Assembly: GCA_964106645.2 (NCBI GenBank)
Contig: OZ067038.1
Length of the DNA: 64,000 nt
Source of the DNA: Podarcis pityusensis
Taxonomy: Eukaryota
Reading direction: 5' to 3' (one strand)
Positions 3,388 to 58,300 of this stretch are shown piece after piece. The stretch's first letter is position 1, and each line of letters opens with the position of its first letter. Position numbers: made by a program.

Positions 3388-6300
3388 CACATATATACCA
3401 TCGTATTTAGTAGCCCCTTAAAATAAACATCCCTTCCAGAGCACACTTTAATTATATTTGCTTAGGATGTTGCTGCCATGTTTGAAATGCTAATTGAGTG
3501 AACACTGACAGCACACAATTCTTCTCCCCCCTTCCCCCCCTTCTGGCGCCTTTGAAATCTGCTCTTGACTGATTTTTAGCCTAAATCAGGATCTGTGTGC
3601 ACCCCACAAAGAGAGCTTTCCAGCTAAATGTATTCTCTTAGCCTCTCTGTTTTTGCTCCATGCGTGAAAAGACGCAAAATGCAAAGTATCTTGGCTCACA
3701 GCTGCAGTCCATGTTTCATATTGGAGGCACGACTCCTTAACACCAAAGCCCTATCTCTGGCTCTGTCAAAACCCCAACCCGGGTCCATTTTGAAAAATAA
3801 AAAGCTTCTTTTCACCCAGTAAGACAAGGAGAGCTTTTCCTGCAAGCCTGGAAAGAGCTGAGATGGGCACCTGGGGTTTATTATTATAAAGGTTTGGGAG
3901 AAAATGTTTAGGGAAATAGCCCACCTGCTTATGATGGAACAGTTCCCTCCTCTGTTGGAAGGCCTCTGCTTGCCCTCCCGCTTTTTGTTACATTCCTGCA
4001 CATAACACATAACTTAAAACGTTAGGTGGGATAAGAATTGACTCATGGCTGAGGCCCTGCAACCCTTTGGCTTTAGCAGAAGAGTCTGCTTTTTATAGTT
4101 TTAACTTGTTTATTTATTTTACTGTTTTATATATAGTTTAGGGCTTAAAACATTCATGCTGCATTCAGCTTGTGAGTGGTTCATCATCGCATAGCCTTTG
4201 ACTTTGCACCCTCTCCAAACCTTTTGAAAGTGAGTTGAGCGATAGCATGCAAAATCATGGCTGCCACTTTGTGATGAATCACTTCCACATCTTGTCCATG
4301 TTTTGAACACAGGATGGTTGTGTGAACTGCCCCTCGGTGGTCTCTGTGGAGGGCAGAGCAAGCAGTGCATTTCAGTTTAGTAACTCTTAAAAAAATAACC
4401 AGAGTCTAAGGTGGAAGAGAGAAAGAAATTTGGAGGCATTCATTCAAACCATCACAAGTTACAGTTTTAGCTAAAGGTAGCTCTGATTGTTTCATATTTG
4501 CATAGTGCACTGCTCTGTAAGTTTAGAAACTCCTGCACTCTCAGCCAGAATGGGTTTTGTCACTGGTAGAAGGATGGTCTCTGGGAGGGGAAGGATTCTT
4601 CTGCACAAATAACATGGATGAGTAAAGTTGAGCAGGAGGTTACTGCAGGAATGGGAGGTCATTACCTTCCCGTCTTGCATGTGACTCAGAAGAGCGCACA
4701 TGTGCCGGAAGGAATGGGATGGCCCACTGCAGACCCCAGCAGCTCACGCTGTCAGTCTGACACAGCTGATACAGATCAGGTGGAAGTCACTGGGCAGCGA
4801 GTTGTGTTCATATGTTCAGCCAAGTTCTTTTTATCGGACCTGGTCAGGTGCACAGTTCTCTTTCCGATGTCTCAGACAAGGAGGAAATGCTTATTGAGAC
4901 TTCAACAATGCCCGCTTCCTGTGTTCCCTCAGGCAGGAAACAAGCGCAGCAGCAGAGAATGCCTGAGGGCTGATTAAGCCACCAGTCTTTGCTTGGAAAT
5001 CTGGGCTGATTCAGGCTTTTCTCCCTCCATTGCATGGCGCTTGCACGTCCTACCCTGGCTGCAGTGTGGAAGGGAGCAGCCACAGCCCCTCTTGCATCTA
5101 AACAGGAAGCCCCAAAGAAGGCACTTCAATGTTTTAACCTAATGGCATGTTTGCTGCAGAAAGTCTAGCTGAAATTGTATCTTCTTACCATGCATGTGTG
5201 CACGTACATGTAGTCTGGCTTGTTCTGCAAACCAAAATTTCAGTGGCACATCCATTAAATTAGAAATATTTGGGAGAGCATAAGTGGGCTCCACCAGGGG
5301 TCCCCACTTGCTACTTTGTGAGCTTCTGTTGGTGCTTCTTTTCTGAGCATGAGCACTAGGAAGCCTTTACCGCCTGAGATAAATAAAGCCTCTGACAGTT
5401 CTGCTGCTCCAGAGGGGCAGAGAAGGTGGCGGAAGTTGGGAGAGGAGGAGGAGGTGGAAGATGATGGGAGCTTTCAGGAGAAGTCCATCTTAGTCAAGCA
5501 GCTGGAAGTTTAAGAGAAAGCTCCAGAAGCAGGCACACAAAACTTAAAGAGGTTGTCTTCTCCAGCTTTTGATAACTCTCCAGAAGCAACCAATCTGAAA
5601 ACACTGATGGCGAAGGTGGCTAGTCTGCCTCACTTTTTAAGTAACTGGATTGCTCATAAGTCCTATTATATTTGTGTAGCATTGATGTGTATGTTTTCGA
5701 CTTTATAAGCCATTGTTTACTGAAGCTAGGCACAAGTGTTGCCCTTCCCATCTTTTTCTCTGTGCTGTGCCACTTTTTGGTTTGTTTTGGTTTGCGCAAA
5801 GTGTGTGACAACCTTTAATGTTGCTTGCCCTCCACCTTTGCTTGCAACGTTACCTAAGCTCACATTTAACAAAGGGGGAAGCTGAAGGGCAATGACTTGT
5901 CCCACCGAGGATTGGCTCATACATGAGCATGCATCATTCATATTTCTCAACATGTGGGTGAATGTATAAATGGATCCCATGGTTTTCAAAAGATGAGTGT
6001 CTTGAGATAGTTTGAGGTAGTTTGGAAGTTCCATTTGCAGTCTTGGATGTGAGCTGACTCACTGAGACTTGCTAGTCATCACTTGATGGTGCAGCGATTA
6101 AATTAGGAACATGGATATAGGAACTGAATTCTTCTAAAAGCTGAAACCCAGTATTTTGCCTGCTAAACAACACTGATTTCCTGTAACTTGCCTATTTATG
6201 CGCCAGCATCTCATATGACCCGAAACAGCACTTGCTGCTTCCTGTTCTGCTGGAGAGCTAATAGCTGCTGGTTTTATTTGCAAACATTTCTTGGTCATTA

Positions 6301-55300: not shown

Positions 55301-58300
55301 GGGTGACGTTCTTTTATATCGGAAGGAGATGTGTACAGCAAAATTCAGATTTGACCACTTTCCTAAATCCCCAGCATAGAGACATGTACACACATCACTT
55401 GCCAAGTCTGATTAACTTTACCATCAGAGCAGAAGTGATCCTTGTCATTGATTGTTCATTATGCGCGATTGTGGAATTTTTTTTGGGTATCATGTTCATA
55501 TATTTAGTAAGCACTTCAGTGGTAGAATCAGTATGTCACATGAACTGCAGGTAACATTAGCTTTGATTTTTAGTAGCAATTGTAAGGAGCTAAAGTTGTC
55601 ACAGCTGAAAGTCAGAGTCAGCTGCAGGTCCAGATTTTTACTGAATAATTCCTCAAAGCACATGGATTCAAACTTGCTCATAATTTCAGCTCTGGTTTGT
55701 GTTCCTTGCTTTAAGTCTTAACTGAAGCTCTTCATTAACCAGGCTGCAGGGATCCACTATCCAATGCATATTTGCAATCTTTTTGTAAAGCTCTCCCAAT
55801 CTACCTTCTATCCAGAGAGCAGTAACTCCAGCCTTTAACACCAATGTCTACACTCTGTGAGGGTTTTGTTAGGAAAGAGATGGGATAATTCTGACCGTTT
55901 TCCAGACTGGGGTATCCATGGCTGGCACCGTCTCTTTCTGCCTTCGATGTCAGGTCCTGCAGTAATTGTTCTTCTGGTTAATGAATGCCAGCACAACTTG
56001 GTGGCATGAAATTCAAGAACCCAAGTTGCAGAAATCCAGAATTCTTCTCCATCTCCTCAGCATGGCAAGTATCCGTGCTGTACCCCAGATGCTCTGATTT
56101 TTCTTAGGAGACTTATCAAGAGAGGCTTGACAGTCCAAGAGAAAGCTAGGCTAACGCAATGGTATGTCTGGCTTGATTTCACACTCTGAGCAGAGCTTTC
56201 AGCACAGATGGATTTAGGCTTGGTCCGCAATCTGTTCTTTGAAAAAGGAAACAGCCTTTGCAAGCCTGGAAATGGATGCGTCATCCTACAAAAAAAGCAA
56301 AACAAAGGCCGCTGTCGGAAGCTTCTCATGACCGGCCGGAGGCTACAGAAATCAACAAGCTCCAGGCAGTCTGTGCATAGTACATGTTAGAGAGAGAAAA
56401 GCTTAGGAGTAACTGCATGTTGTGACATGAATCTTGGGCATATTGGAGAGCATTCTAGGTTGCAGGGGGAGGAATCCCTCACCCAACAGAGGTTAGCCAA
56501 GGGGTCATTTTTCTCAGGCAGAAGGACTCACTAATACAGGCTGGTATGCAGGTATGTGGTGAGATGTTCAATGTTTATCCACTAAATCAACATCAGTGAC
56601 TACAACCTCTGAGCCCAGGCACAATGATAAACACAAGAGCACCAAACATTATATGGAAAAAAGTTCAACTACAGTCAAACAATGGACACATTTCAGAAAA
56701 GGGTAAGCACACTAAAATCCTTCTGAGATAGATGGGCTTTTAAGTTCTGATCTGTGTGGTTTATGTTGCATTAATGTCAATTAAACAGAAACATGTCAAG
56801 CTTTGCTTGGAGTGATTCCTGTGCGTTCAGCAACAGAGTTCAGTATACCACATCCTTCAACATTTGATGGACATTTGCTTTGTATTATGGTCCCAATTCA
56901 GATTTAGTCAGGTCCTGGGTGGAGATGTGCACCCTCTGTTCTCAACCTTTGGGTCCCCAGATGTTGTTGGGCTACAACTCCCATCATCCCTGAGCTCTGG
57001 CCTTGCTAGCTAGGGGTGATGGGAGTTGTAGTTCAACAACATCTGGGGACCCATAGGTTGAGAAAGGCTGAATAAAGAGACAATTTCTTTTGCAAGGTTT
57101 TATACTTTTGTTAGGGACAGGGGTGGCGCTGTGGGTTAAACCACAGAGCCTAGGACTTGCCGATCAGAAGGTCGGCGGTTCGAATCCCCGCGACGGGGTG
57201 AGCTCCCGTTGCCCGGTCCCTGCTCCTGCCAACCTAGCAGTTCGAAAGCACACCGAAGTGCAAGTAGATAAATAGGTACCGCTCCGGCGGGGAAGGTAAA
57301 CGGGGAAGGTAAACGGAAGGAAGGTAAACGGGGAAGGTAAACGGAAGGTAAATCTTCCATCATATTGTCCAAGCAGGCACTGTTTGCAGGTGACTGGGTA
57401 CCCACATTTAGGCAAAAACCAACCCCCTCCCAAACCCATGCACGTTAGCTTACCAGTGCACATATAGTAATTGAGAAATGAAGCTATAGTTGAAAAGACA
57501 GGACCTGTGTAAGGTAAAGGTAAAGAAACCCTGGACGGTTAAGTCCAGTCAAAGGCAACTATGGGGTATGGTGCTCATTTCCCTTTCCAGGCCGAGGGAG
57601 CCGGTGTTTGTCCACAGCTTTCTGGGTCATGATTAAATCACTACTGGCACACGGAGGACCATGACGAATGCCAGAGTGCACAGAAACACTGTTTACTGTT
57701 CCACTGCAGCGGTACCTATTTATCTACTTGCCCTGGTATGCTTTTGAACTGCTAGGTTGGCAGAAGCTGGGACAGAGCAATGGGAGCTCATCCCATCACT
57801 CAGATTTGAACTGCCGACCTTCCAATCAGCAAGCCCAAGAAACTCAGTGGTTTAGACCACAGTGCCACCAGCACCTTTCCCCCAAATCATTGTAGATGTG
57901 TTCATGAAGCCAGTCTTCCTGCATAGGAGGAATGCTGTGAGACAGCTATGTGGTTTTAACCCATGTTTGGAGTTCACCGTATTTCTAGGGTGGGTTGAGG
58001 GGAGAAAGCTTCAGCAAAACACTTAACAAAGGGCTAGAGTTCTTTATAATAAATCTGCCTTGGCAATTAAAGCAGTGTGCTTGGGGCATTGTTTTGTGGA
58101 AGGGTGTAACATTAATGAGACTTCCTGGGGCTGGGTGAACTCTTTGGGAAGTGTGTTTATTTTCTGCTTGTTTGGACTGACTTCCCTTGGCTATCTCTTT
58201 GGACCATCCCATGCTTCCCATTAGCTGCTCTAGCCACTGTTGTCTTCATTGTGTATTTCTCCAGTGTGTTGCTGAATACCTTTGTTGACATGTCAACACT

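What the first reader, a model, noticed from the sequence alone, without database searches (positions are those of the whole stretch)
4700..56368. Battery of phase-matched alternative first exons around a split C1 domain
Seen: the candidate ATG-initiated exons upstream of the 38-bp C1 exon (4700-4847, 19282-19363) both end in phase 1 at AG|gtgc, matching its phase-1 acceptor. Those downstream (24010-24027, 54634-54660, 54822-55034, 56276-56368) end in phase 0, matching the next exon. Inference: the TNS1 5' region may act as a variable-first-exon cassette spliced to a constant body, giving full-C1, half-C1, C1-less and hydrophobic-anchored isoforms under separate promoters. Only MDFGSVMNQ has outside support. 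I selected candidates partly on phase, so the concordance is not an independent test.
Basis: partly seen in the sequence, partly recalled or inferred. Interest (0 to 1): 0.7.

Follow-up and report, generated by a model that had tools for sequence, protein, structure and literature searches.

The report
Mostly chance ORFs in tensin intron
The window holds one tiny real exon for part of a C1 zinc-finger domain and one plausible alternative first exon of a tensin gene, but the other five proposed first exons look like the chance start-to-splice-site stretches that any long intron contains by the hundred.

Summary
The 38-bp C1 exon is at 19745-19782, entering in phase 1 and leaving in phase 0.

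The phase concordance is what chance gives. The + strand of 4700-56368 holds 4191 open ATG-to-GT segments, split 1416/1369/1406 by phase. 389 of 1224 upstream segments are in phase 1, and 995 of 2967 downstream are in phase 0. The minus strand looks the same.

By two donor measures only 24027 is strong, and such sites occur 14 times on + and 15 on -. The donors at 55034 and 56368 are poor. No candidate has a CpG island, a Pfam hit above cut-off or a match in the protein collection (4700 and 54822 peptides).

Only 54634-54660 (MDFGSVMNQ) has a full Kozak context. Its outside support is recalled, not shown by any tool.

The real content is probably an ordinary two-way choice of a long C1 form or a short form, as already described for other tensins. 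No transcript or cross-species data were available. Interest is low.

The parts
19745..19782 (+). 38-bp internal coding exon. It encodes the stretch C-x4-H-x2-C of the C-terminal half of a C1 zinc-finger domain and runs from phase 1 to phase 0.
   Evidence: Pfam C1_1 gives a partial match, profile positions 34-48 of 53, E=0.054, 13.8 bits, below the 26.5-bit cut-off. The donor is at the 99.7th percentile by PWM and the 99.1st by U1 pairing. The acceptor follows a long pyrimidine tract.
54634..54660 (+). Coding part (9 codons, MDFGSVMNQ) of a probable alternative first exon. The start site is unknown, somewhere upstream.
   Evidence: It has G at -3 and G at +4 and ends in phase 0. The donor CAG|GTACTA is at the 86.8th percentile by PWM and the 96.1st by U1 pairing. 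There is no good pyrimidine tract before it (sequence). Its outside support, the same N-terminus in chicken tensin, is recalled and not shown by any search.
4700..4847 (+). Unsupported candidate ('half-C1'); most likely a chance ORF segment.
   Evidence: Kozak context is weak (C at -3, T at +4) and six ATGs lie in the 200 nt upstream. Five ATGs are open to this donor, in phases 2, 2, 1, 2 and 0. 42 upstream phase-1 segments have a donor at least as good. No protein of 87-2000 aa matched at E<=10.
19282..19363 (+). Unsupported candidate ('half-C1'); most likely chance.
   Evidence: The donor TAG|GTGCCA is at the 77.7th percentile by PWM and the 86.1st by U1 pairing. 102 upstream phase-1 segments have a donor at least as good. 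There is no Pfam hit.
24010..24027 (+). Unsupported candidate of 6 codons with a strong donor-like site.
   Evidence: The donor GAG|GTAAGG is at the 99.8th percentile by PWM and the 99.5th by U1 pairing. Sites of this strength occur 14 times on the + strand and 15 times on the - strand. Two further in-frame ATGs, at 23914 and 23920, are open to the same donor. The peptide is too short for any protein search.
54822..55034 (+). Unsupported candidate ('hydrophobic-anchored'); most likely a chance ORF in the intron just after the real first exon.
   Evidence: The donor ATG|GTCTGT is at the 84.3rd percentile by PWM and the 72.9th by U1 pairing. A TATAAA sits at 54816, directly before the ATG. 11 of 47 + strand ORFs of 60 aa or more have a comparable hydrophobic stretch. 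Pfam gave only sub-threshold matches. No protein of 126-2000 aa matched.
56276..56368 (+). Unsupported candidate; effectively no donor.
   Evidence: The donor GCA|GTCTGT is at the 51.7th percentile by PWM and the 28.7th by U1 pairing. It has T at -3. 477 downstream phase-0 segments have a donor at least as good.

Best explanation
The window is intron-rich 5' territory of a tensin gene on the + strand.

Two pieces look real. One is a 38-bp internal exon (19745-19782) carrying part of the C-terminal half of a C1 domain. The rest of that domain lies in exons outside the window. The other is an ATG-bearing alternative first exon (coding part 54634-54660), about 35 kb downstream.

Transcripts starting far upstream would include the C1 exons. 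Transcripts starting near 54.6 kb would skip them and join the same downstream body in phase 0. This is ordinary alternative promoter use that gives a C1-plus and a C1-less form.

The other five 'first exons' are chance ATG-to-GT open stretches. Their phase agreement was produced by selection from hundreds of equivalent segments.

Shown: the exon anatomy, the phases and the chance statistics. Inferred: use of the two 5' ends, the gene's identity, and the non-use of the five candidates.
For: - **C1 exon.** The frame, a strong acceptor and a strong donor are. Pfam C1_1 gives a partial hit at profile positions 34-48 of 53.
- **Phase.** One third of all open ATG..GT segments fall in each phase: 1416/1369/1406 of 4191. 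The matched classes are 389 of 1224 upstream and 995 of 2967 downstream.
- **Whole window.** The picture is the same: upstream phases 542/476/543 of 1561, downstream 1162/1190/1191 of 3543. The minus strand gives 1448/1335/1373 of 4156.
- **Donors.** Percentiles among 3633 GT sites are 91.4, 77.7, 99.8, 86.8, 84.3 and 51.7 by PWM. By U1 duplex energy they are 95.2, 86.1, 99.5, 96.1, 72.9 and 28.7.
- **Strong donor-like sites.** There are 14 on the + strand and 15 on the - strand.
- **Open stretches after an ATG.** 137 of 1321 reach 148 nt or more on the + strand, against 151 of 1217 on the - strand. 53 against 63 reach 213 nt or more.
- **CpG.** Observed/expected at the six candidates is 0.14-0.40, against a window mean of 0.20. 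The CpG-rich spots of the window are repeat copies.
- **Paralogy.** None of the 7 segments searched (six candidates and the C1 exon, each with 250 nt flanks) hit another.
- **Protein searches.** Nothing matched the 4700 and 54822 peptides.
- **Zinc sites (established knowledge, recalled).** Each of the two zinc sites of a C1 domain draws ligands from both halves of the motif. A 'half-C1' N-terminus could therefore not fold as a C1 domain.
Against: - **Weak sequence-only tests.** The one candidate I accept (54634-54660) does not stand out on donor score either, at the 86.8th percentile. 33 other downstream phase-0 segments equal it on donor score plus Kozak context. Failing to stand out therefore does not exclude use.
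- **Recalled matrix.** My donor matrix is recalled and approximate. MaxEntScan and SpliceAI were not available.
- **Uninformative protein searches.** They may say little. Even the real C1 exon found nothing, because 12-13 residues cannot reach E<=10. I do not know whether this species' annotated proteins are in the collection.
- **Candidates not searched.** 19282, 24010 and 56276 were not searched at all.
- **Missing data.** No transcript, CAGE or cross-species alignment could be consulted.
- **Non-coding first exons.** They need neither an ATG nor a phase, and they were not looked for systematically.
- **24027.** Its donor is truly strong.
Confidence: 0.8

Rival explanations
1. Most of the six are real promoter-linked first exons that form a variable-first-exon cassette and yield full-C1, half-C1, C1-less and membrane-anchored tensin forms.
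For: Letters and phases are as stated. The 24027 donor is strong. 19282 and 56276 lie in somewhat CpG-richer stretches, observed/expected 0.40, about the 92nd percentile. The 54822 peptide has a clear hydrophobic stretch, KD19 2.33.
Against: - The phases are at chance level.
- Two donors are poor.
- There are no CpG islands.
- The candidates show no paralogy with each other.
- The two peptides that were searched found no protein match.
- A half C1 lacks ligands for both zinc sites (recalled knowledge).
- The TATAAA at 54816 would place a start site after the 54822 ATG.
- Hydrophobic stretches are common in intronic ORFs here, 11 of 47.
Confidence: 0.04
2. One or two of the sites are used, but as non-productive or non-coding events. 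Examples are a cryptic or 'poison' exon ending at 24027, or a non-coding leader ending at the donor-like site after 54555. None would be a protein-coding first exon.
For: The sites after 24027 and 54555 are both at the 99.5th percentile of U1 pairing, with PWM scores of 6.48 and 7.23. The short ATG frame before 54555 ends in TAA, so an exon ending there would be non-coding. First exons of tensin transcripts can be non-coding (recalled).
Against: Equally strong donor-like sites are as common on the antisense strand, 15 against 14. No acceptor or promoter evidence was found, and there are no transcript data.
Confidence: 0.13
3. The MDFGSVMNQ exon is not a first exon but an internal cassette exon, entered at the AG before 54630.
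For: Several AG dinucleotides precede the ATG, in the stretch ..atagaacagcgcag|cgagATG.
Against: The 20 nt before that AG are purine-rich with no pyrimidine tract. The ATG has a full Kozak context. As recalled, the peptide is an annotated protein N-terminus in chicken.
Confidence: 0.05

Closest known systems
Tensin-2 (C1-TEN) variants with and without the N-terminal C1 domain, and the 'C1-Tensin 3 isoform'
   Same: A tensin gene gives forms that carry or lack an N-terminal C1 domain through different 5' ends (PMC10315744, passages read).
   Different: The locus here carries a tensin-1-type first exon (by recall) in a reptile. No transcripts were seen. Two reviews call the C1 domain unique to TNS2 (PMC12383349, passages) or a variable feature of tensin-2 (PMC10315744, passages).
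Human erythroid TNS1 exon 1E (eTNS1)
   Same: An ATG-bearing alternative first exon encodes 9 unique residues and is spliced in frame to the constant body from its own promoter (PMC11702514, passages read).
   Different: [quoted passage not shown] It sits in a LINE, may be primate-specific, and is backed by RNA-seq, chromatin marks and knockout. The candidates here have no such support.
Variable-first-exon arrays such as UGT1A and the clustered protocadherins (recalled, no call)
   Same: Several first exons, each with its own promoter, are joined to shared constant exons.
   Different: Those variable exons are paralogues of one another and encode a whole domain. Here the candidates are unrelated to each other, short, aimed at two different acceptors, and no better than chance.

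Membership tests
C1 domain (Pfam PF00130) | Full motif H-x12-C-x2-C-xn-C-x2-C-x4-H-x2-C-x7-C, scoring above the Pfam cut-off. | tested here: inconclusive
   Only the stretch C-x4-H-x2-C lies in the window, at 19745-19782. The Pfam match covers profile positions 34-48 of 53, E=0.054, 13.8 bits against a cut-off of 26.5. The N-terminal half and the last Cys were not found in the window.
Variable-first-exon array (UGT1A / protocadherin type) | The variable exons are paralogues in tandem. | tested here: not met
   blastn of the 7 segments, each with 250 nt flanks, against the window found no hit between candidates. The only hits came from a GT microsatellite at 19146-19183.
Variable-first-exon array (UGT1A / protocadherin type) | Each variable exon has its own promoter. 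| tested here: inconclusive
   There is no CpG island at any candidate, observed/expected 0.14-0.40. Promoters without CpG islands cannot be seen from sequence with these tools.
Variable-first-exon array (UGT1A / protocadherin type) | All variable exons splice to one common constant exon. | not testable with these tools
This needs transcripts.
Alternative promoter / first exon of a tensin gene | An ATG exon whose donor is in phase with the shared downstream exon. | tested here: met
   Met for all six by construction. About one third of 4191 decoys meet it as well, so it does not discriminate.
Alternative promoter / first exon of a tensin gene | Transcript or annotated-protein evidence for the exon. 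| tested here: inconclusive
   The 4700 and 54822 peptides found no protein at E<=10. The real C1 exon also found nothing, so sensitivity is low. A paper search for the nine-residue string found 0 papers.
Tensin-1 (TNS1) orthologue | Sequence match to TNS1 rather than to TNS2 or TNS3. | not testable with these tools
Only 12 and 9 coding residues lie in the window. No tensin protein could be retrieved.

The most novel reading that the evidence does not exclude
At least one of the five unsupported candidates is a real, lineage-specific coding first exon. The most likely are 24010-24027, with its strong donor, or 4700-4847. In that case this reptile tensin gene would run three or more promoters in its 5' region, one of which gives an N-terminus that keeps only a remnant of the C1 domain.
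Probability: 0.1. Interest if true: 0.35.

Novelty: already known. Interest (0 to 1): 0.1.

Why it matters
It matters little as biology. A C1-plus or C1-less choice of 5' ends is an ordinary arrangement that is already described for other tensins.

There are two useful points. First, phase agreement among hand-picked ATG-to-GT stretches carries no information in a 50-kb intron. This window offers 389 upstream and 995 downstream phase-matched alternatives. Second, the window shows a C1-type exon beside a tensin-1-type first exon, while two reviews describe the C1 domain as peculiar to tensin-2. That point would be worth a line in an annotation note if the gene is confirmed as TNS1.

Tried and rejected
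- **Retrieving tensin proteins to map their N-termini onto the window.** The word-index search with a 42-aa frame around the C1 exon had 16 candidates and none at E<=10. The full HMMER scan of 1.84 billion representatives with a 30-aa frame gave 0 hits. The PDB search gave one chance hit at E=1.4. A 12-residue match cannot reach significance, so this route failed. Gene identity and outside support for MDFGSVMNQ stay unchecked.
- **Calls answered with an error.** One search had a query under 40 aa. One search had max_evalue above 10.
- **Looking in the window for the N-terminal C1 half and for the next exon.** Motif scans and ORF listing found nothing convincing. Both are taken to lie outside the window.
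- **Pfam on the candidate peptides and their enclosing ORFs**. Only sub-threshold chance-level matches appeared (SCRG1, DUF2484).
- **Repeat origin of the candidates**. None overlaps an intra-window repeat. No repeat library was at hand.
- **Rfam**. The only match was a tRNA-like piece at 12228-12285, unrelated to the finding.
- **Spliced models.** Every search was made exon by exon.
- **Data not available.** No vertebrate genome, transcript or CAGE collection was at hand. The collection genome contigs holds bacteria and archaea only and was not used.
- **Supplements.** They were closed. The appendix figures of PMC11702514 on species conservation were not seen.
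Full report
**What is there.** The window has no N. All six candidates start with ATG, are open to the stated end, and have the stated lengths, phases and donor letters.

| Candidate | Length (nt) | Phase | Donor |
|---|---|---|---|
| 4700-4847 | 148 | 1 | CAG|GTGCAC |
| 19282-19363 | 82 | 1 | TAG|GTGCCA |
| 24010-24027 | 18 | 0 | GAG|GTAAGG |
| 54634-54660 | 27 | 0 | CAG|GTACTA |
| 54822-55034 | 213 | 0 | ATG|GTCTGT |
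| 56276-56368 | 93 | 0 | GCA|GTCTGT |

It is at 19745-19782 on the + strand. It follows a long pyrimidine tract and cccgtacag, and it is followed by GTAAGA. It reads two bases of a split codon and then CKLSCHKKCEAK, so it enters in phase 1 and leaves in phase 0.

Pfam places that stretch on positions 34-48 of the 53-position C1_1 profile. The match has E=0.054 and 13.8 bits, below the 26.5-bit cut-off, as expected for a fragment.

Motif scans and ORF listing found neither the N-terminal half of a C1 domain upstream nor a plausible 'next exon' downstream. Both must lie outside the window. The statement that the downstream candidates 'match the next exon' is therefore only an inference from the phase-0 end of the 38-bp exon.

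**Is the concordance more than chance?** No.
- On the + strand of 4700-56368 there are 4191 ATG-to-GT segments without an in-frame stop. By phase they split 1416, 1369 and 1406.
- Upstream of the C1 exon, 389 of 1224 are in phase 1. Downstream, 995 of 2967 are in phase 0.
- Over the whole window the split is 542/476/543 of 1561 upstream and 1162/1190/1191 of 3543 downstream.
- The antisense strand gives 1448/1335/1373 of 4156.
- The effect of selection shows at a single donor.
- The shared AG|GTGC ending is not special either. 18 open segments on the + strand end that way, and a third upstream phase-1 case (387-519) was not listed.
- Open stretches after an ATG are common on both strands. 137 of 1321 ATGs on + and 151 of 1217 on - are followed by 148 nt or more. 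53 and 63 are followed by 213 nt or more.

**Donor strength.** I scored all 3633 GT sites of the + strand in two ways. One used a recalled, approximate vertebrate donor matrix. The other used the pairing energy with the 5' end of U1.

| Site | PWM percentile | U1 percentile |
|---|---|---|
| 19782 (real C1 exon) | 99.7 | 99.1 |
| 24027 | 99.8 | 99.5 |
| 4847 | 91.4 | 95.2 |
| 54660 | 86.8 | 96.1 |
| 19363 | 77.7 | 86.1 |
| 55034 | 84.3 | 72.9 |
| 56368 | 51.7 | 28.7 |

Sites as strong as 24027 number 14 on the + strand and 15 on the - strand. The number of phase-matched decoys with a donor at least as good is 42 for 4847, 102 for 19363, 6 for 24027, 125 for 54660, 158 for 55034 and 477 for 56368.

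**Start context and promoters.** Only 54634 has a purine at -3 together with G at +4. The ATG at 4700 has C at -3 and six ATGs in the 200 nt before it. The ATG at 56276 has T at -3 and five ATGs before it.

No candidate lies in a CpG island. Observed/expected CpG in the 500 nt around each ATG is 0.14-0.40, against a window mean of 0.20 and a 99th percentile of 0.75. The CpG-rich spots (17.0-17.6 kb and 57.0-57.5 kb) are copies of one repeat.

The TATAAA at 54816 sits directly before the 54822 ATG. If it were used, transcription would start after that ATG.

**Other tests.**
- The candidates are not related to each other or to repeats within the window.
- The hydrophobic stretch of the 54822 peptide (KD19 2.33) is not unusual in kind. 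11 of 47 + strand ORFs of 60 aa or more pass 1.6, and 2 of 47 reach the candidate's value. The second count was not checked for the candidate's own ORF, which may be one of the two.
- Pfam found nothing above cut-off for any candidate or enclosing ORF.
- Searched exon by exon, the 4700 peptide (1 word-sharing candidate) and the 54822 peptide (13 word-sharing candidates) matched no protein of up to 2000 aa at E<=10.
That step was left out.

**Limits.** The tests have low power.
- The exon I accept (54634-54660) does not stand out on donor score. 33 other downstream phase-0 segments equal it on donor score plus Kozak context.
- The real C1 exon also found nothing in the protein collections or the PDB, because 12 residues cannot reach significance.
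- I therefore could not fetch any tensin protein, could not confirm that the gene is TNS1, and could not confirm the outside support for MDFGSVMNQ. A full-text search for the string found 0 papers.
- Candidates 19282, 24010 and 56276 were not searched in the protein collection.
- No transcript, CAGE or vertebrate genome data were available.

**Mechanism.** The best reading is ordinary alternative promoter use. Transcripts from a far-upstream start include the C1 exons. Transcripts starting near 54.6 kb begin with nine codons and join the same downstream body in phase 0, which gives a C1-less form.

A 'half-C1' form is unlikely to be functional. Each zinc site of a C1 domain takes ligands from both halves of the motif (recalled structural knowledge).

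**Comparison with the literature.**
- Reviews describe tensin-2 as variably carrying a C1 domain, discuss a C1-less variant, and mention a C1-tensin-3 isoform (PMC10315744, passages).
- A preprint shows a human TNS1 alternative exon 1E that encodes 9 unique residues from an internal promoter (PMC11702514, passages).
- Another review calls the C1 domain unique to TNS2 (PMC12383349, passages). The C1-type exon at this locus does not fit that statement if the gene is TNS1.
- PMC9687257 added nothing; its hits were in the reference list only.
- Arrays of the UGT1A or protocadherin kind (recalled) differ. Their first exons are paralogues that each encode a whole domain, which one search excludes here.

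**Verdict.** The letters are confirmed and the pattern is at chance level. One real small exon and one plausible alternative first exon make a known kind of arrangement. Five candidates are unsupported. Interest is low.

Noticed in passing
window 54531-54555 (+): A short ATG frame ending in TAA runs into a strong donor-like site, AAG|GTGAGG (PWM 7.23, 99.5th percentile of U1 pairing), 79 nt upstream of the MDFGSVMNQ ATG. It could be an alternative non-coding leader donor, or it could be chance.
   Followed up: partly
window 19745-19782 (+) together with 54634-54660 (+): A C1-type exon lies in the same gene orientation as a tensin-1-type first exon. Two reviews (PMC12383349, PMC10315744, passages only) treat the C1 domain as peculiar to tensin-2. 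The gene identity was not confirmed here.
   Followed up: partly
It is an example of an equivalent decoy.
   Followed up: no
window 21921-22056 and 56939-57064, with related copies near 31081, 34872, 46800 and 52125: This is a family of short palindromic, MITE-like interspersed repeats. The arms are 53-58 nt, 86-92% complementary, with 20 nt between them.
   Followed up: no
window 17176-17301 and 57166-57291, with an inverted copy at 57735-57839: These are copies of one interspersed repeat, 90% identical in the direct pair. They are the most CpG-rich spots of the window, observed/expected up to 0.95. A 13-nt tandem array lies at 57288-57352.
   Followed up: no
window 58116-58506 and 60494-60868: A local duplication of several hundred bases, 86-96% identical in blocks, with the two copies about 2.37 kb apart.
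   Followed up: no
window 12228-12285 (+): A partial tRNA match in Rfam, 36.5 bits, model positions 8-63 of 71. It is probably the head of a tRNA-derived SINE.
   Followed up: no
window 15874-16848 (+) and 47582-48088 (+): Open frames of 324 and 168 aa that look to me like the tails of LINE ORF2 proteins. This is recall only. Pfam gave no significant hit.
   Followed up: partly
window 48001-50000: A strong purine excess on the + strand, GC skew 0.28 and AT skew 0.32. It remains unexplained.
   Followed up: no
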